DNA from: Minisyncoccota bacterium
GTDB taxonomy: Bacteria > Patescibacteriota > Minisyncoccia > UBA6257 > JAGOQP01
NCBI GenBank assembly: GCA_041661795.1
Contig: JBAZTS010000001.1
Location: 39,459 to 103,458 of the forward strand
Reading direction: 5' to 3'
DNA: 64,000 nucleotides
A model generated the notes under the pieces. That model made no database searches, had not been told where the DNA came from, and saw only the letters and a program-made list of their open reading frames with translations. This document shows, one piece after another, positions 3,173 through 40,054 of the stretch. The position numbers and the translations under genes were made by a program. The number at the start of each line of letters is the position of its first letter. The first letter of the stretch is position 1.

Positions 3173-4321
3173 TTACTTAGAAACAGCCAATCTTACCAGT
3201 TCTTGGGCTATAACTAAGGCCGCTTGGGGCTTGGCAAAGCTTTCGGAGGCCTCCGACATTTTTTGACTCTTTTGCTTATTTAAAAGAATCATGTCCATCT
3301 GGATAAAAAATAATGATGGTTTGAGGTTGTCTTCCTCAATAACTAAAGCGGCTCCAGTTTTAGCGTATTCATATGCATTATATGACTGATGGTTTCTGGC
3401 CGATTCTTTAAGAGGAATTAGAATAGACGGTTTTCTAACCATGGCTATTTCAAATATAGAACTGCTTCCTGAACGAGATATTATTAAATCTGAAGCGATC
3501 ATGGCTTCTTTGATATCCTTTTTTAGAAAATCAACAATTTTGTATCTGGCTTTTTCCTCAGGAATCAAATTCTTGGTAGCCACAGCAATCTCTGCTTTAA
3601 AAGAGGCAAAATTTTCCATTCCCACCTGATGAAGAACTTGATATTTAGAAACAAGCTCTTTGATATTATCCAGGAGAAAATCGTTTATTCTGACAGCTCC
3701 TTGAGAACCTCCCAAAATCAATATCAATGGTAAATCGCTTTCAAAACCAAACATTCTTTTGGCTTTTTTCGGGTCTAAGTCCTTATCTTCTTCCAGAAAA
3801 AGAGATCTGACCGGATTTCCTACAACAGCCACTCGAGGACCGGAAATAAAATCAAGAGATTTGGAAAATGACAGAGCAATCCTTCTGGCCATCTTAAAAG
3901 ATAAAGAATTTGTCGCTCCCGGAATAGAATCTGACTCGTGGACAAATATGGGAACATTAAATATATAACAGGCAATAACTACCGACAAAGCTCCGGTGCC
4001 TCCTTTAGAAAAAATAACATCAGGCATTACTCTAAAAATTTTCCAAAGGGCTTGAAGAACCGAAAATGGAAATTTGATGATATCAATTATGTTTTCCAGT
4101 GAAAAATACCTCCTAATCTTAAAACCAATAATGGGCATGATTTTTATTCCCAAAGAAACAAAATCCGCTCTAAAAATTCCAGGGTCACCAAAATAAAAAA
4201 GTTCAAAGGTATTATCTTTTTGATAAGAAATGATTTTCCTAGCTTCTCCGGCTACAGCTAAAAGAGGATTTATATGTCCCCCACTCCCTCCTCCAGTAAA
4301 AGCTATTCTGATATTTCTCAT
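3173..4321 (-). CDS. murG: undecaprenyldiphospho-muramoylpentapeptide beta-N-acetylglucosaminyltransferase
   Basis: N-terminal GGGSGGH glycine loop, GT28 two-domain architecture, adjacent to ftsW. Confidence 0.9.
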   Translation of the reverse strand: MRNIRIAFTGGGSGGHINPLLAVAGEARKIISYQKDNTFELFYFGDPGIFRADFVSLGIKIMPIIGFKIRRYFSLENIIDIIKFPFSVLQALWKIFRVMPDVIFSKGGTGALSVVIACYIFNVPIFVHESDSIPGATNSLSFKMARRIALSFSKSLDFISGPRVAVVGNPVRSLFLEEDKDLDPKKAKRMFGFESDLPLILILGGSQGAVRINDFLLDNIKELVSKYQVLHQVGMENFASFKAEIAVATKNLIPEEKARYKIVDFLKKDIKEAMIASDLIISRSGSSSIFEIAMVRKPSILIPLKESARNHQSYNAYEYAKTGAALVIEEDNLKPSLFFIQMDMILLNKQKSQKMSEASESFAKPQAALVIAQELVRLAVSK

Positions 4322-25418: not shown

Positions 25419-26954
25419 TTATTGCATTTGTGCTTTTAATGCGACAATTTGAGTTATTAAAGAATCTCGTGTTGCAGTATCAATGGTATTGTTTAATTGA
25501 TTCTGTAAAACACTGATTTGCTTTGATATGGCGTTAATTTTATCTCGGATTGCTTGTACTTGCGCTTCTAAAGTAGTAATTTGCGTTGTTAAATAATCTC
25601 GCGTTGCAGTATCGGTAGTATTATTTAATTTATAATATAAGGCGCTAATTTGCATCAATAAAGCGTTTATTTTTTCTTGATTAGTTGATGAAGCAGAAAT
25701 TACTGGGGTTTGACTCTGGGAGTGTAAGCCAAGACCGTTGGTATTTATTGATGTAGCTGAAATTACTGTGGTAGTAGTGTCGGAAGCGCCTTGAAGTATT
25801 TTCACTTGCGTTTTTAATGCGATAATTTGCGCTATCAAAGAATCTCGTGTTGCAGTATCAATAGTATTATTTAATTGATTCTGTAAGATACTAATTTGCG
25901 TCTGTATATTAGCTATTTTATCTTGAGTGGCAGACGTAGTCACAATTGTACCGTATCCTCCTCCGCTCGTTGTCGTAACAGGAGAAGATACCGAAATAGT
26001 AGGAGTGGTGACCTGAGTATTATTTTGTCCCGCTATAATACTAAATTCCGTATCGCTGAAATCGCCAATATAAGAAATCACATCACAAGAAGCATAAGAA
26101 CCCTCAACATAAATTGATATTGTATAATTGTTCCCCAGGCCAGGCCATGATTGAATGTTACTTGGAATCGTATACGTATAACTTTCCAAATTTGTGGTAA
26201 CTCCTATTAATTGACTGCTATTCACCCCCGTTTTAGTTGTCGGCGCGTCATATCCCTTGTTTAAATAAACCAACAAAGCTTTATTTCCGACAATATCTTT
26301 CGCAGAATATTTTATAGTATACGTTTCGCCAACCTGCCACTGCTCCCCTCCGTTCGGAGAAAGAATCTTAATAACAGTAGGAGTGAATGGAATTTGAACG
26401 CCCACTGGGGTTTTGCATGGCGTGGCTGGGGTTGTGGAAGAAAAATTTGATATCGATGTGATTGGTGTAGTAGATATAGCTGGTGTGGCTGAAGTTGCCG
26501 AAGTTGCTGGTATTCCTGTTCCGGAAGAAGGAGTGGCTGGTGTAGCGGGAATAGCGGCCACAAGAACATTTAATTTCTCTTGAGTTTTAGGTCCAACCAT
26601 TCCTACGGACTCGATACCGTTCTGCTCCTGAAACTTTTTAACAGCTACTTGAGTAAGTGGTCCATAATATCCAGTAATCAAGCCGTTGGGATAGCTACCT
26701 GTAAAGTTTTTTAAAAACTCCTGTAGTTTTTTTACATCGTCTCCAGTAGCTCCTTGTGCCAGGGCTCTACTAAACTTAAGTTCAATTTTTACAGTTTGAA
26801 CCTCAATTTGAAGATCTGCTATCTGTGATTGTAATGATTGTATCTGGGTTTGAAGTTGTTTAATTAAAGCTTGTAAATCAGCCGTTGAGTCAGTTGTTTG
26901 AGCGAACGTTAATAATGGAAACATTAGAGCTAGAACAAATAAATATTTTTTCAT
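25419..26954 (-). CDS. secreted coiled-coil protein with PG_binding_1 peptidoglycan-binding domain and three internal about 35-aa repeats
   Basis: Signal peptide; GATGDDVKKLQEFLK...GYYGPLTQVAVKKFQ (PG-binding); repeats LQNQLNNTIDTATRDSLIAQIIALKTQ x3 with corresponding about 75-bp DNA direct repeats. Confidence 0.6.
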   Translation of the reverse strand: MKKYLFVLALMFPLLTFAQTTDSTADLQALIKQLQTQIQSLQSQIADLQIEVQTVKIELKFSRALAQGATGDDVKKLQEFLKNFTGSYPNGLITGYYGPLTQVAVKKFQEQNGIESVGMVGPKTQEKLNVLVAAIPATPATPSSGTGIPATSATSATPAISTTPITSISNFSSTTPATPCKTPVGVQIPFTPTVIKILSPNGGEQWQVGETYTIKYSAKDIVGNKALLVYLNKGYDAPTTKTGVNSSQLIGVTTNLESYTYTIPSNIQSWPGLGNNYTISIYVEGSYASCDVISYIGDFSDTEFSIIAGQNNTQVTTPTISVSSPVTTTSGGGYGTIVTTSATQDKIANIQTQISILQNQLNNTIDTATRDSLIAQIIALKTQVKILQGASDTTTTVISATSINTNGLGLHSQSQTPVISASSTNQEKINALLMQISALYYKLNNTTDTATRDYLTTQITTLEAQVQAIRDKINAISKQISVLQNQLNNTIDTATRDSLITQIVALKAQMQ

Positions 26955-27002
26955 ATTTTCAATTATATCAAAATTCTAACATCCTATCCAGATATAAAAA
27001 AC
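26955..27002 (-). promoter_or_regulatory. conserved promoter cassette copy B; extended -10 TGATATAAT 7 nt from the ATG (leaderless)
   Basis: Minus strand reads GATGTTAGAATTTTGATATAATTGAAAAT-ATG. Confidence 0.5.
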
Positions 27003-27065
27003 AACCGCCTCGGGATAAACCTTAGCGGGAGCAGTGGAATCTGCTCAGTCCTAATGTGCTCGGTT

Positions 27066-27443
27066 CTACTGGTAGAAAGTCAACCGGAACTTGTTGCTGA
27101 TGTGATCGCTCACTCCTCCTCCCTTGGGACAAAACGTCATCCTCCGCCATTCACCCCACCCGCCTTGGAACTCCTTGGTTCCGTTGATGAGAAACTTCTC
27201 TCCGATCCTGACGATCACCCCTTCCGGATGAGACCGCCACTCGTTGAAGTTGCCTTCGTAGATCAAAGTTTTGCCGTTGAGGAGAAGCCTCCTACCCAGT
27301 CGAATGATCACTCCTTCGGTGTGCCACCAGAAAGAATCCCAGGGACCCTCGTAGAGGACAATGCTGTCCCCTGGTTGGACTTGGGAGAGTAACTCATCAA
27401 GAGTCTCTCCTGTTGCAACAGTAATTGTTCTCCTTAGTTGCAT
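27066..27443 (-). CDS. small tandem-repeat protein (3 x about 32-aa MORN-like repeats) in a GC-rich islet; candidate partner of the HicB-like gene
   Basis: Strong SD GGAAAGGAGAAAGCG-ATG; repeats hYEGxWxxWxxHxEGVIxRxGxxxLxNG; local GC about 50% against about 30% background. Confidence 0.55.
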   Translation of the reverse strand: MQLRRTITVATGETLDELLSQVQPGDSIVLYEGPWDSFWWHTEGVIIRLGRRLLLNGKTLIYEGNFNEWRSHPEGVIVRIGEKFLINGTKEFQGGWGEWRRMTFCPKGGGVSDHISNKFRLTFYQ

Positions 27444-27476
27444 CGCTTTCTCCTTTCCTTACAGAAGTTGATGCGT

Positions 27477-27641
27477 TCAGTGTTGCTTGTTCTCCTCCAC
27501 TGTGATCCCGAAAGCATCCTGGTGGTTGAGAATAAGATTTCCGATAGCTTCGTACAGGCTCTTGCCACATCCCCAGATTCCGTTGTGGTCATCCAGGCAG
27601 ACGTGATAGTCATCACTTCTGCGAGTTACGATGATCTTCAT
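27477..27641 (-). CDS. HicB-like (UPF0150/DUF1902) antitoxin-fold small protein, 54 aa
   Basis: Perfect SD GAGGAGGTGATC-ATG; MKIIVTRRSDDYHVCLDDHNGIWGCGKSLYEAIGNLILNHQDAFGI matches the Y-V-x-VPDLPGC-x-xG-T-EEA-x-N-x-EAI pattern of HicB-like proteins; below the ORF-track cutoff. Confidence 0.5.
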   Translation of the reverse strand: MKIIVTRRSDDYHVCLDDHNGIWGCGKSLYEAIGNLILNHQDAFGITVEENKQH

Positions 27642-27690
27642 GATCACCTCCTCTCAACAAAATAGCACATATAGTGCTATTGGTCAATCT
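27642..27690 (-). promoter_or_regulatory. promoter with palindromic operator upstream of the HicB-like gene
   Basis: Minus strand: TTGACC-AATAGCACTATATGTGCTATT-TTG...; 8-bp perfect inverted repeat AATAGCAC/GTGCTATT occupies the spacer. Confidence 0.45.
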
Positions 27691-27795
27691 TTTGCTCCGA
27701 CTGATGGACAATATTAGAACTTGTTTTTACAACTCCTGCATTATTTACCCAAAATAAATTTTATATTATTCATACTTATTGATAGAATATAGTTA

Positions 27796-28560
27796 ATGAC
27801 TAAAAAAATAGAGTGGTTAAAAATTTTAGGTCTCCTTGGCTATGTCTTGCTTGCTTGTATATTTATACTTATTTTCCGACCACCATATATTCTGACGATA
27901 ATAATAGTTTTGGTCCCACCAAGTATTGTTAATTTTTTATGGCTTAAAAATTCTAAAAAAAGAGTGTTGATATTTTCTATCGTTACCGCCCTGCTTTTTG
28001 GACCACCCATCGAACTCGCTCTTCGCCTCGCAAATGCGTGGGATGTTCAATCATTCTTTTTCCGCCCCCTCGGAATTATACCTTTAGAAAATATGCTTTT
28101 TGCTTTTTTAAATTTTTTCTGGGTAATAAGCTTTTATGAATATTTTATAGACCGATCCAAAGAGCAAAAGATATCAAGAAAATTCAAATTCCTTGTTGGA
28201 CTATATATTCTCTTATTAGTAATTGTATTCGGCACATTTATACACAATCCTACTTTAATTGCTATTAATTATGCAGTTGCTTCTATACCTATACTTATAA
28301 TCCCGTCCCTGATAATTTATTTTAAAAATCCAAAACTTCTTAAAAAAATAGTAATACCTATTCTTTTTTTCGCAATAGTATTTTTTGTCTATGAAGTAGT
28401 GGCATTAATAATTGGTAACTGGTGGTGGCCCGGTGAATATATTTATCCCGTAACAATATTTGGTAAAATATTTCCCCTTGACGACGCATTTATCTGGTAT
28501 TTCCTCTCAACTGCTACATTAATTGGTGGCTACGAATTTTTTGTTGATGATTTCAACTAA
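27796..28560 (+). CDS. lycopene cyclase domain (CrtYcd-like) polytopic membrane protein
   Basis: Two homologous halves, each with hPLE(N/D)xhF motif (IIPLENMLFAF; KIFPLDDAFIWYF), 7-8 TM helices; extended -10 TGATAGAAT 7 nt before the ATG. Confidence 0.45.
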   Translation: MTKKIEWLKILGLLGYVLLACIFILIFRPPYILTIIIVLVPPSIVNFLWLKNSKKRVLIFSIVTALLFGPPIELALRLANAWDVQSFFFRPLGIIPLENMLFAFLNFFWVISFYEYFIDRSKEQKISRKFKFLVGLYILLLVIVFGTFIHNPTLIAINYAVASIPILIIPSLIIYFKNPKLLKKIVIPILFFAIVFFVYEVVALIIGNWWWPGEYIYPVTIFGKIFPLDDAFIWYFLSTATLIGGYEFFVDDFN

Positions 28561-30648: not shown

Positions 30649-31224
30649 CTAAAGAATATTAATACCAAACTTCTTAAGTTCTACGGATAATGAGAAAATG
30701 GGAAGGCCAATAATATTAAAATAATCTCCTTCTATTCTTTCGATAAATAAAGACGCTATGCCCTGCATAGCATAACCTCCACCTTTATCCAATGGTTCTC
30801 CAGAAGCAACATAAGCGTTTATTTCATAATCAGAAAGATTTTTGAAATAAACTTTTGTTTCTACTGATTTAGAAACTTGTTTATTGGTTTTGGTATCAAT
30901 TATAGCAAAACCGGTTATAACAGAATGCACTCTACCACTAAGTTTACTCAACATGGCCTTAGCTCGTTCTTCTGTTTTTGGTTTACCAAGAAATTCTCCA
31001 TCAAGAACACAAAATGTATCCGCTGCGATGATGATTGAATCTTTATGTTTCAAAGCTACATCTTTTGCCTTACCCAAAGACAAATATTCAGCTAATTTAC
31101 TTGGCTCCATTTTTAAGCTCATATCTTCTTGATAATTACTTGGATCTACTTCAAATTGTAAACCAACTTGTGAAAGTAATTCCTTTCTTCTTGGAGATGA
31201 TGATGCTAAAACTATTTTTTTCAT
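30649..31224 (-). CDS. maf: Maf-like nucleoside triphosphate pyrophosphatase (septum formation protein Maf)
   Basis: N-terminal LASSSPRRKELL, conserved AADTF and catalytic K/E positions; 191 aa. Confidence 0.85.
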   Translation of the reverse strand: MKKIVLASSSPRRKELLSQVGLQFEVDPSNYQEDMSLKMEPSKLAEYLSLGKAKDVALKHKDSIIIAADTFCVLDGEFLGKPKTEERAKAMLSKLSGRVHSVITGFAIIDTKTNKQVSKSVETKVYFKNLSDYEINAYVASGEPLDKGGGYAMQGIASLFIERIEGDYFNIIGLPIFSLSVELKKFGINIL

Positions 31225-31864: not shown

Positions 31865-32371
31865 TTAGGCAATAGCTAATTTACTTTTCTTCCAAGCACT
31901 CTTCATAAGCTCCATCATAATAACTTTTGAAAGATATTTATTATCTTTATAAAGTTTTATTCCCTTCTTATGAAAACCGAGCTTTTTATATGTACTAATA
32001 GCATTCTTGTTTTCTGGCCTGACTTCAAGATAAGCTTTTTTATAATTTAACTTTACAAACCCCATTTGAAGTATTTTTCTAAGAGCCCAAGTTCCAACCC
32101 CTTTTCCTCGATGCTTCCGTTCTCCTATAATTATGGGAGTCCTGAAAACGGTCTTACTTTTTCTCCTAACCATAATGTGTCCAATCGGTTTTGTGTCAGC
32201 TAAAATAATAAATTGAGGATTTTTTGACTTCAATAATTTTGGAAAGAATTTAGCAATTTTGACAGGATCTTCTTTTCTACCGCTTGTCATACTTATTAAA
32301 TAAGGATCAGTCCACCACTTAATAAAGTATTTTTTATCGGAAAGTTTTGGTGGTCGTAAATTTAAGTTCAT
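31865..32371 (-). CDS. GNAT family N-acetyltransferase
   Basis: Motif A RGKGVGTWALRKILQMGF (Q/RxxGxG/A), 168 aa. Confidence 0.75.
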   Translation of the reverse strand: MNLNLRPPKLSDKKYFIKWWTDPYLISMTSGRKEDPVKIAKFFPKLLKSKNPQFIILADTKPIGHIMVRRKSKTVFRTPIIIGERKHRGKGVGTWALRKILQMGFVKLNYKKAYLEVRPENKNAISTYKKLGFHKKGIKLYKDNKYLSKVIMMELMKSAWKKSKLAIA

Positions 32372-39964: not shown

Positions 39965-39981
39965 AAAATACTATTATTTTG

Positions 39982-40054
39982 TCCGCCCACCAGGATTCGA
40001 ACCTGGGACCCTCTCCTTAAAAGGGAGTTGCTCTACCAACTGAGCTATGGGCGG
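39982..40054 (-). tRNA. tRNA-Lys (anticodon TTT), CCA not encoded
   Basis: Minus strand CCGCCCA-TA-GCTC-AGTTGGT-AGAGC...CTCC-CTTTTAA-GGAG...CCAGG-TTCGAAT-CCTGG-TGGGCGG-A. Confidence 0.85.

What the first reader, a model, noticed from the sequence alone, without database searches (positions are those of the whole stretch)
27003..27720. Roughly 650-bp GC-rich islet encoding a HicB-like small protein plus a novel tandem-repeat protein, both with strong Shine-Dalgarno sites
GC rises from about 30% to about 50% between 27003 and 27665. Two minus-strand genes sit here. A 54-aa HicB-like (UPF0150) protein has GGAGG 5 nt upstream of its ATG, and a 125-aa protein of three 32-aa repeats has AGGAGA. SD sequences are essentially absent from every housekeeping gene in the window. 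The promoter upstream (TTGACC-17-TATTTT) has an 8-bp perfect palindrome AATAGCAC/GTGCTATT in its spacer, as expected for an autoregulated antitoxin operator. No HicA-like toxin is present. The repeat protein would therefore be a new partner, either toxin or effector, of a HicB-fold regulator. This looks like a recently acquired TA-like or defence-like module.
Basis: partly seen in the sequence, partly recalled or inferred. Interest (0 to 1): 0.75.

Follow-up and report, generated by a model that had tools for sequence, protein, structure and literature searches.

The report
Foreign two-gene islet in a CPR genome
A 0.7-kb GC-rich stretch in a tiny-genome (Paceibacterota) bacterium is a horizontally acquired two-gene operon: one small protein only marginally resembles HicB antitoxins, the other belongs to an unnamed repeat-protein family. 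There is no evidence that the two form a toxin-antitoxin pair.

Summary
Window 27003-27665 has GC 0.505, the highest of all 6,334 same-size windows (mean 0.362). It carries two minus-strand ORFs of 54 and 125 aa. Their GC3 is 0.63, against 0.19-0.42 for 60 host ORFs. Both have strong Shine-Dalgarno sites, which host genes lack. A TTGACC-17-TATTTT promoter contains a perfect 8-bp palindrome, and a terminator-like hairpin follows the second ORF. Several samples and assemblers recover the islet with the same flanks, so it is not a chimera.

- The 54-aa protein matches no HicB model in Pfam. It has a confident predicted beta-beta-beta-alpha fold and a marginal 27-residue match to a HicB-family profile (hhalign probability 36%, P 3.8e-4).
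- The 125-aa protein belongs to an unnamed family of 31-aa repeats with at least 179 clusters, absent from Pfam, NCBIfam, PHROGs and PADLOC. Most named members are Patescibacteria. Its N-terminal cap resembles the start of PL6 beta-helix lyases.
- No relative of the 54-aa ORF lies near the family gene in about 70 other loci. No HicA or other toxin fold is present.

Best reading: an acquired accessory operon of unknown function, not a demonstrated TA or defence module.

The parts
27682..27687 (-). -35 hexamer TTGACC of the islet promoter
   Evidence: Consensus scan, 9 of 12 matches, 17-nt spacer, TG before the -10 box. Sequence read.
27659..27664 (-). -10 hexamer TATTTT
   Evidence: Lies 19 nt upstream of the ATG of the 54-aa ORF.
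27661..27681 (.). Perfect 8-bp inverted repeat AATAGCAC-N5-GTGCTATT, overlapping the promoter spacer and the -10 box (operator-like)
   Evidence: Sequence. There are 34 such repeats in 64 kb, so about 0.016 are expected per 30-bp promoter. Function is inferred only.
27647..27651 (-). Shine-Dalgarno GGAGG (within AGGAGGTG), 5 nt before the ATG
27477..27641 (-). 54-aa ORF (stop included): small beta-beta-beta-alpha protein, possible HicB-fold protein without a DNA-binding domain
   Evidence: GC by codon position is 0.54/0.30/0.63. AF2 single-sequence pLDDT is 78.6. hhalign to the HicB-family profile gives probability 36% and P 3.8e-4 over residues 11-37. There is no Pfam hit. Gene callers did not call this ORF.
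27449..27454 (-). Shine-Dalgarno AGGAGA (within AAGGAGA), 5 nt before the ATG of the 125-aa ORF
27066..27443 (-). 125-aa ORF (stop included): member of an unnamed family of 31-aa beta-repeat proteins
   Evidence: phmmer found 179 relatives at E<=1e-3 and 98 at E<=1e-10. Alignment A1. Family HMM E 8e-45. Identical to NCBI 'hypothetical protein WC705_00395, Candidatus Paceibacterota bacterium'.
27363..27443 (-). N-terminal cap (aa 1-27, ...TLDELLSQVQPGDSIV...) of the repeat protein
   Evidence: Conserved across small family members. The cap profile hits the extreme N-terminus of PL6 alginate lyases: 5gkd at E 2.3e-4, and 7o77, 8bwk, 7dmk and 6kfn more weakly.
27177..27362 (-). Repeats 1 and 2 (aa 28-58 and 59-89), period 31 aa, motif LYEGxW..W..HxEGVI.R.G..LL.NGK
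   Evidence: The 93-nt spacing recurs in family loci.
27069..27176 (-). Degenerate third repeat plus C-terminal strand (aa 90-125)
   Evidence: Alignment A1. The HPxGVVI core is replaced by CPKGGGVSDHIS, while the NKFxL..Y end is kept.
26996..27046 (-). Two hairpins (27029-27046 and 27005-27028) followed by UUGUUUUUU: terminator-like 3' end of the islet
   Evidence: RNAfold. The strict consensus scan did not call it, because the stem is interrupted. Inferred.

Best explanation
The islet (about 26996-27690) is a horizontally acquired, self-contained bicistronic transcription unit. It sits in the divergent intergenic region between two native genes of a Paceibacterota (CPR) genome.

Shown:
- The islet is extreme in composition (GC and GC3).
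- Translation signals are SD-led, unlike the host's apparently leaderless or non-SD genes.
- It has its own sigma-70-type promoter.
- Gene 2 belongs to an unnamed family of 31-aa beta-repeat proteins. The family is centred on Patescibacteria and is compositionally discordant with its neighbours in about a third of the loci examined, which suggests frequent transfer.

Inferred:
- The donor was another, GC-richer lineage that uses SD sites, probably also Patescibacteria. The family was not found in viral or plasmid collections.
- The 125-aa protein is a cytoplasmic, non-enzymatic short right-handed beta-helix (solenoid). It has an N-terminal cap helix and about three coils, each with three strands, an Asn ladder and an aromatic stack. 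It probably acts as a binding or scaffold module, as in the larger proteins that carry the same repeats at their C-terminus and in the AAA_5-repeat-VWA operons.
- The 54-aa protein is a small beta3-alpha protein. It is possibly a DBD-less HicB-fold relic or a small partner that happens to be co-transcribed.
- The palindrome is bound, if at all, by some other factor.

Overall this is an accessory 'cargo' operon of unknown physiological role, not a demonstrated toxin-antitoxin or defence system.
For: Composition and signals.

Promoter, palindrome and terminator.

Not an assembly artefact: the same islet and flanks appear in 4-5 contigs from ENA, Logan, NCBI and JGI assemblies of different samples. 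The two loci compared base by base are 100% identical.

Family membership.

Family names: Paceibacterota, Patescibacteria and Parcubacteria, plus one 724-bp 'Desulfobacterales' contig.

Family contexts:
- stand-alone genes between housekeeping genes (S13/S11/S4, the atp operon, RRF/SecDF, TGT/GluRS);
- tandem arrays of up to six paralogues;
- six loci with the order AAA_5 ATPase, family gene, CobT-like VWA protein.

GC3 of the family gene versus its neighbours in 36 loci: it exceeds the neighbour mean by more than 0.1 in nine loci and falls well below it in several others. The window has one of the two largest differences (0.63 vs 0.30; one other locus has 0.62 vs 0.23).

No viral or plasmid carriage.

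Beta-helix cap: six of the top eight PDB hits of the cap profile are PL6 alginate lyases. They match at their N-terminus, and in two-domain enzymes also at the start of the second beta-helix domain.

The 54-aa ORF is coding: it has codon-position GC periodicity, an SD site and a confident single-sequence fold.
Against: No empty site in a sister genome was found, so the insertion is inferred from composition alone.

No mobility gene, tRNA or flanking direct repeat marks the borders.

The beta-helix fold is not modelled. AF2 on the single sequence gave pLDDT 38, and the PL6 similarity covers only about 26-32 residues.

The function of both proteins is unknown.

The palindrome (chance about 0.016) and the tight bicistronic layout are what a regulated two-component module would also show.
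Confidence: 0.55

Rival explanations
1. New TA-like or defence module. The 54-aa HicB-fold protein would neutralise and/or regulate the 125-aa repeat protein, which would act as toxin or effector. The palindrome would be the autoregulatory operator.
For: The layout is a tight bicistronic operon, with the small gene first, 33 nt between the genes and a palindrome in the promoter. The 54-aa ORF shows marginal HicB-family similarity. Small HicB proteins without a DNA-binding domain, placed upstream of the toxin, are a common class (PMC10865869; PMC11594946). The islet is mobile and foreign, as TA modules often are.
Against: The pair does not recur. There is no 54-aa relative and no HicB-profile hit near the family gene in about 70 loci. 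Family genes usually stand alone, form paralogue arrays or have other partners. The repeat protein has no known toxin fold and no PADLOC hit. The 54-aa protein has no DNA-binding domain for the operator. No Pfam HicB model matches it.
Confidence: 0.12
2. Relic of a compact hicBA module. The small HicB-like gene and its operator-bearing promoter would be what is left of a class-2-type hicBA operon. Its hicA was replaced by, or fused next to, an unrelated mobile repeat-protein gene. The two products would then have no functional link.
For: The promoter has a palindrome overlapping the -10 box, as described for hicAB promoters (PMC11594946). The gene order, with small HicB first, matches class 2 (PMC10865869). 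The family gene is otherwise an autonomous unit with its own promoter and SD site.
Against: HicB homology itself is only marginal (probability 36%). No hicA remnant exists in any frame. Both ORFs share the same GC3 (0.63), which suggests one donor and one transfer event.
Confidence: 0.15
3. Only the 125-aa gene is real. The 54-codon ORF would be an untranslated leader or a chance ORF within the 5' region of the acquired gene.
For: Gene callers never called the ORF. It has no homologue in 5.8 billion proteins by word search, nor in IMG/VR, phages or plasmids.
Against: It has a perfect AGGAGGTG motif at ideal spacing to the ATG. Its codon-position GC is 0.54/0.30/0.63, like that of the neighbouring real gene. 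AF2 gives pLDDT 78.6 from the single sequence. Its score against the HicB profile is well above all 300 shuffles.
Confidence: 0.13
4. The islet is an assembly chimera, contamination, or a GC-rich structured-RNA gene.
For: GC-rich islands in low-GC genomes are often RNA genes, and MAGs can be chimeric.
Against: Rfam finds nothing in the islet at gathering threshold or at E<=10. The 125-aa ORF is conserved at the protein level. The islet and its flanks are recovered by different assemblers from different samples.
Confidence: 0.02

Closest known systems
HicB-family antitoxins without a DNA-binding domain (small HicB of class 1/2 hicAB/hicBA modules; T. thermophilus TTHA0281, PDB 2dsy; Pfam PF21748/PF15919)
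   Same: Small size. Predicted beta-beta-beta-alpha core. Local motif D-x-x-G-[IV]-W-x-x-G-K-S-L-x-E-x-x-x-N-L, with 41% identity over 27 residues to TTHA0281. First gene of a bicistronic operon behind a promoter that carries a palindrome.
Right-handed parallel beta-helix proteins, specifically the N-terminal cap of PL6 alginate lyases (AlyGC 5gkd; 7o77; 8bwk; 7dmk; 6kfn)
   Same: Cap motif L-x-x-L-L-x-x-A-x-x-G-D-x-I-x-L-x-x-G-x-W at the very start of the solenoid. About three beta-strands per repeat, with an invariant Asn and Gly residues and stacked aromatic residues.
   Different: The repeat is 31 aa rather than about 22-28 aa. The protein has only two to seven coils. It has no signal peptide and no lyase catalytic region. 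The similarity covers only about 30 residues. The fold has not been modelled.
MORN / YwqK-type repeat proteins (recalled from memory only)
   Same: Repeats begin Y-E-G-E-W and end N-G-K. The proteins are small, repeat-only and often occur as paralogue arrays.
   Different: The period is 31 aa rather than 23 aa. No Pfam MORN or MORN_2 hit was found for any family member tested.
Ordinary genomic islets or 'morons' acquired by HGT
   Same: Compositionally foreign, with its own promoter and terminator, inserted between native genes, and carrying cargo of unknown function.
   Different: There is no integrase, tRNA target or flanking repeat. The cargo family was not found in viral or plasmid collections.

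Membership tests
HicB antitoxin family (Pfam PF15919 / PF21748 and relatives) | Significant match to a curated HicB profile | tested here: not met
   Pfam at E<=10 returned only DUF5514 (E 0.1). NCBIfam and PADLOC returned nothing. A self-built PF21748-type profile (A3) gave hhalign probability 36%, P 3.8e-4, 27 columns, and 0 of 300 shuffles reached the score. This is marginal.
HicB antitoxin family (Pfam PF15919 / PF21748 and relatives) | N-terminal partial RNase H fold (beta-beta-beta-alpha, with or without a fourth strand) | tested here: inconclusive
HicB antitoxin family (Pfam PF15919 / PF21748 and relatives) | Adjacent hicA toxin gene | tested here: not met
   No HicA match in any alternative ORF of the islet. 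tblastn with E. coli HicA found nothing in the window.
HicB antitoxin family (Pfam PF15919 / PF21748 and relatives) | C-terminal HTH/RHH DNA-binding domain (classical classes only; commonly absent in small HicBs according to PMC10865869) | tested here: not met
   The protein ends 15 residues after the helix. This feature is not obligatory for the family.
Type II toxin-antitoxin module | Two small, adjacent, co-oriented genes in one operon | tested here: met
   There are 33 nt between the genes, a single upstream promoter and a terminator-like end.
Type II toxin-antitoxin module | The pair recurs as a unit in other genomes | tested here: not met
   No 54-aa relative by tblastn or phmmer in about 70 distinct family loci. 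None in IMG/VR, phages or plasmids.
Type II toxin-antitoxin module | One product is toxic and the other neutralises it | not testable with these tools
   Needs expression and rescue assays. The 125-aa protein has no known toxin domain.
Type II toxin-antitoxin module | Antitoxin binds an operator in its own promoter | tested here: inconclusive
   A perfect 8-bp palindrome is present (chance about 0.016), but neither product has a recognisable DNA-binding domain.
Unnamed 31-aa repeat family (LLYEGxWDxWxSHPxGVVIRxGNxLLLNGK) | Significant sequence match to family members | tested here: met
   phmmer E 6e-61 to P0002, with 98 hits at E<=1e-10. Family HMM E 8e-45; this HMM was built from an alignment that includes the window protein.
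Unnamed 31-aa repeat family (LLYEGxWDxWxSHPxGVVIRxGNxLLLNGK) | N-terminal cap M.L.R......L.ELL..A..GD.I.LYEG as in the small stand-alone members | tested here: met
   Alignments A1 and A4.
Unnamed 31-aa repeat family (LLYEGxWDxWxSHPxGVVIRxGNxLLLNGK) | All repeats intact and C-terminal ...LLVVYK strand present | tested here: inconclusive
   Repeats 1 and 2 are canonical. Repeat 3 has lost the HPxGVVI core and has an insertion. The end is NKFRLTFYQ.
Right-handed parallel beta-helix (pectate-lyase-like, PL6 type) | N-terminal cap motif at the start of the solenoid | tested here: met
   The A4 profile against PDB gives AlyGC at E 2.3e-4. Four other PL6 lyases follow at E 0.024-0.43, all matching at residues 8-49 of the enzymes.
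Right-handed parallel beta-helix (pectate-lyase-like, PL6 type) | Solenoid three-dimensional fold | tested here: inconclusive
   Single-sequence AF2 gave pLDDT 38, which is not usable.
Horizontally acquired genomic islet | Composition and translation signals differ from the host | tested here: met
   GC 0.505 vs 0.362. GC3 0.63 vs 0.19-0.42. SD sites are present only in the islet.
Horizontally acquired genomic islet | Absent from the same site in close relatives; mobility genes or target duplications at the borders | tested here: inconclusive
   All contigs that carry the flanking gene also carry the islet, and the two loci compared are identical. No sister genome was found. No tRNA, integrase or direct repeat lies at the borders.

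The most novel reading that the evidence does not exclude
The islet could be a working two-component module of a new kind. A minimal HicB-fold protein would control a short beta-helix repeat protein instead of a HicA RNase. More broadly, the unnamed 31-aa repeat family could be a conflict or immunity-type protein family specific to CPR bacteria. The pointers are that the family is prone to HGT, forms paralogue arrays, is fused to varied N-terminal domains, and is embedded between MoxR-like AAA_5 and VWA genes.
Probability: 0.1. Interest if true: 0.6.

Novelty: new member of a known kind. Interest (0 to 1): 0.3.

Why it matters
As it stands, this is a clean example of recent gene acquisition in an ultra-small CPR genome. 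It is easy to recognise because the host appears to use leaderless or non-SD initiation while the incoming genes bring strong SD sites. The useful by-product is the delineation of an unannotated repeat-protein family. It has at least 179 clusters at 50% identity and no Pfam, NCBIfam, PHROG or PADLOC model. It is largely Patescibacteria-associated, with a probable mini beta-helix architecture and signs of frequent transfer and paralogue expansion. If the HicB-like protein really partners with it, HicB-fold antitoxins would be shown to pair with something other than HicA. Nothing found here demonstrates that.

Tried and rejected
1. Structured-RNA explanation. Rfam gave nothing in the islet at gathering threshold or at E<=10.

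2. Word-indexed protein search. The 125-aa protein found only itself, and the 54-aa protein found nothing. The exhaustive phmmer search was needed to reveal the family.

3. AF2 of the 125-aa protein from a single sequence gave pLDDT 38, which is unusable.

I replaced it with a hand-made IUPAC pattern.

6. In GTDB genomes the first version of that pattern (HP fixed) gave only two hits, both chance matches antisense to an ABC ATPase in Thermoproteota. A slightly different version (HP relaxed, three consecutive V/I) gave 68 loci in JGI metagenomes, 63 of them real family loci. The same version gave none in IMG/VR.

7. Phage or plasmid origin: no tblastn hit for either protein.

8. Empty-site search through the exact flanking protein. 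All contigs carry the islet, and the two loci compared are identical.

9. The Cpl-7 lysozyme PDB hit (E 3e-4) for the 54-aa ORF was rejected. It is a sum of three weak repeat matches, each with an individual E of 55-98.

10. DUF5514 and Phage_ProQ_C_like are sub-threshold Pfam hits and were not pursued.

Full report
**1. The observation**

Window 27003-27665 has GC 0.505. This is the maximum of all 6,334 sliding 663-bp windows of the 64-kb window (mean 0.362, sd 0.034).

Two minus-strand ORFs lie in it: 27477..27641 (54 aa from ATG) and 27066..27443 (125 aa).
- GC3 is 0.63 for both. Sixty long host ORFs have GC3 of 0.19-0.42.
- The first ATG is preceded by AGGAGGTG, with GGAGG 5 nt upstream. 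The second is preceded by AAGGAGA, also 5 nt upstream.
- Host genes essentially lack such motifs. Many carry a TAnAAT box a few nt before the ATG, which suggests leaderless mRNAs.

The promoter TTGACC-17-TATTTT lies at 27687..27659. The perfect palindrome AATAGCAC-N5-GTGCTATT (27661-27681) spans the spacer and the -10 box. Only 34 such repeats occur in the 64 kb, so about 0.016 are expected in any given promoter.

Downstream of the second stop codon are two hairpins followed by UUGUUUUUU. The islet is therefore a complete transcription unit of about 0.7 kb. It sits between the promoters of two divergent native genes.

It is not an assembly artefact. The same islet and flanks occur in 4-5 contigs from independent assemblies and samples, and the two loci compared are 100% identical. 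The organism is a 'Candidatus Paceibacterota' MAG.

Rfam finds no RNA family in the islet.

**2. The 54-aa ORF**

No gene caller called this ORF. It has no relatives in the word-indexed 5.8-billion-protein search. It has none in IMG/VR and none in phage or plasmid records.

It nevertheless looks coding:
- codon-position GC is 0.54/0.30/0.63;
- the SD site is ideal;
- single-sequence AF2 gives pLDDT 78.6 with a beta-beta-beta-alpha fold.

Evidence on HicB-likeness:
- Pfam, NCBIfam, PADLOC and PHROGs give no HicB hit, even at E 10.
- The best genuine PDB sequence hit is TTHA0281 (2dsy) at E 1.1, over the motif DDYHVCLDDHNGIWGCGKSLYEAIGNL.
- TTHA0281 relatives are annotated as HicB-family antitoxins (PF21748, with or without PF15919).
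- As a calibration, TTHA0281 itself matches a bona fide HicB (6g1c) only at E 0.39.
- A 40-sequence profile of that family aligned to the ORF gives hhalign probability 36%, P 3.8e-4 and score 23.6. Three hundred shuffles give 9.3 +/- 1.9 with a maximum of 15.5.
- Among 3,935 ORFs from all fetched loci, the same profile's best hit is this ORF, at E 0.05.

HicB-fold homology is therefore plausible but unproven. The profile was also chosen because TTHA0281 was the top hit, so the P-value is somewhat optimistic.

The protein has no DNA-binding domain. According to the literature, small HicBs without one are common and how they are regulated is unknown (PMC10865869; PMC11594946).

**3. The 125-aa ORF**

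An exhaustive phmmer search of 1.84 billion representatives gave 179 hits at E<=1e-3 and 98 at E<=1e-10.

The family has these features:
- a 31-aa repeat, consensus LLYEGEWDDWxSHPxGVVIRxGNxLLLNGK;
- in the small members, an N-terminal cap (M.L.R......L.ELL..A..GD.I.LYEG) and a ...LLVVYK end;
- sizes from 85 to 1,568 aa.

No Pfam, NCBIfam, PHROG or PADLOC model covers it.

In the window protein, repeats 1 and 2 are canonical and repeat 3 is degenerate.

A profile of the cap plus the first coil hits the extreme N-terminus of PL6 alginate lyases. AlyGC scores E 2.3e-4 and four others score E 0.024-0.43. In two-domain enzymes it also hits the start of the second beta-helix domain. Each repeat has about three predicted strands and an invariant Asn and Gly residues. 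I infer a short right-handed beta-helix. The fold could not be modelled, because AF2 gave pLDDT 38.

**4. Distribution and context of the family**

Named members are Paceibacterota, Patescibacteria or Parcubacteria MAGs, plus one 724-bp 'Desulfobacterales' contig.

A family-specific DNA pattern behaved as follows:
- One version gave only two hits, both chance matches, in 185,579 GTDB species genomes.
- A slightly different version gave none in IMG/VR.
- That second version gave 68 loci in JGI metagenomes, 63 of which contain real family ORFs.

The contexts are:
- single genes between housekeeping genes;
- tandem paralogue arrays of up to six genes;
- six loci with the order AAA_5 ATPase, family gene, CobT-like VWA protein.

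In 36 loci with enough flanking sequence, the family gene's GC3 exceeds the neighbour mean by more than 0.1 in nine. It is clearly lower in several others. In the loci where I read the upstream sequence, the gene usually has its own SD site in otherwise SD-poor surroundings. This suggests repeated horizontal transfer. The window has one of the two largest GC3 differences.

**5. Co-occurrence of the two genes**

No relative of the 54-aa ORF and no HicB-profile hit lies in any of the roughly 70 other family loci. Where a neighbouring SD-led gene exists, it differs from locus to locus: a 137-aa membrane protein plus a 34-aa peptide in L005, a 154-aa protein in L011, and 131-aa and 237-aa proteins in L013. 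The islet contains no HicA-like ORF.

**6. Verdict**

'Recently acquired' is supported by composition, though no empty site was found.

'HicB-like' is marginal. The 'novel' repeat protein is a member of an unannotated but sizeable family. 'TA-like or defence module' is not supported, because the pair does not recur, no toxin fold is present and no DNA-binding domain is available for the palindrome.

The most likely reading (about 0.55) is an acquired accessory operon. Its main cargo would be a small cytoplasmic beta-solenoid binding protein. The upstream small protein may be a DBD-less HicB-fold relic or an incidental partner.

The rivals are:
- a genuine new TA-like pair (about 0.12);
- a hicBA relic with hicA replaced (about 0.15);
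- the 54-codon ORF not being a gene (about 0.13);
- an artefact or RNA gene (about 0.02).

Noticed in passing
window 39981-40054 (-): ARAGORN labels this tRNA 'Stop, anticodon tta', and Rfam scores it as tRNA at 70.6 bits. Read by hand, the anticodon loop is CUUUUAA after the stem ACUCC/GGAGA, the canonical tRNA-Lys(UUU) loop. The suppressor call is probably a register artefact.
   Followed up: partly
window, upstream of most long ORFs (e.g. 3173..4321, 25419..26954, 27796..28560, 30649..31224, 31865..32371): Host genes have no Shine-Dalgarno site. They often have a GATAnAAT or TAGAAT box ending about 5-9 nt before the ATG, which suggests widespread leaderless or very short-leader mRNAs in this Paceibacterota genome.
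   Followed up: partly
window 25419-26954 (-), left neighbour of the islet: This is a 511-aa protein. By eye (not tested) it has a signal-peptide-like N-terminus. It has a PG_binding_1 domain (E 5e-13). It also has three coiled-coil-like repeats that pass the Pfam cut-off for 'Effector-associated domain 9' (EAD9, 42 bits vs 25). These may be low-complexity matches.
   Followed up: no
L057 5508-10097 (JGI contig Ga0265296_1002708); also L050 and L020: There are six tandem paralogues of the repeat family in one array. Arrays of three occur in L050 and L020, and pairs in several other loci.
   Followed up: partly
L018 3379-5714; L048 1-3421; also L031, L068, L072, L079: A recurrent arrangement is AAA_5 (MoxR/CobS-like) ATPase followed by a repeat-family protein with an extra helical N-terminus. 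A CobT-like VWA protein lies downstream in L048.
   Followed up: partly
L005 2903-3930: In a 30%-GC contig next to infA-rpsM-rpsK-rpsD, the family gene sits in a three-gene block. All three genes are SD-led: a 137-aa protein with a hydrophobic N-terminal segment, the family gene, and a 34-aa hydrophobic peptide. Their GC3 is above that of the ribosomal-protein genes.
   Followed up: no
L026 674-1367 and L038 9198-10844: Near family genes there is a RelE/ParE(Gp49)-like plus HTH pair (L026) and what looks like a serine recombinase (L038). Both were judged by eye from the sequences and were not checked against Pfam.
   Followed up: no
window 27054-27392 (+): A 112-aa antisense ORF lies inside the 125-aa gene. 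One gene caller called it instead of the real gene in an identical contig (L087). It has no Pfam hit and is an annotation trap.
   Followed up: yes
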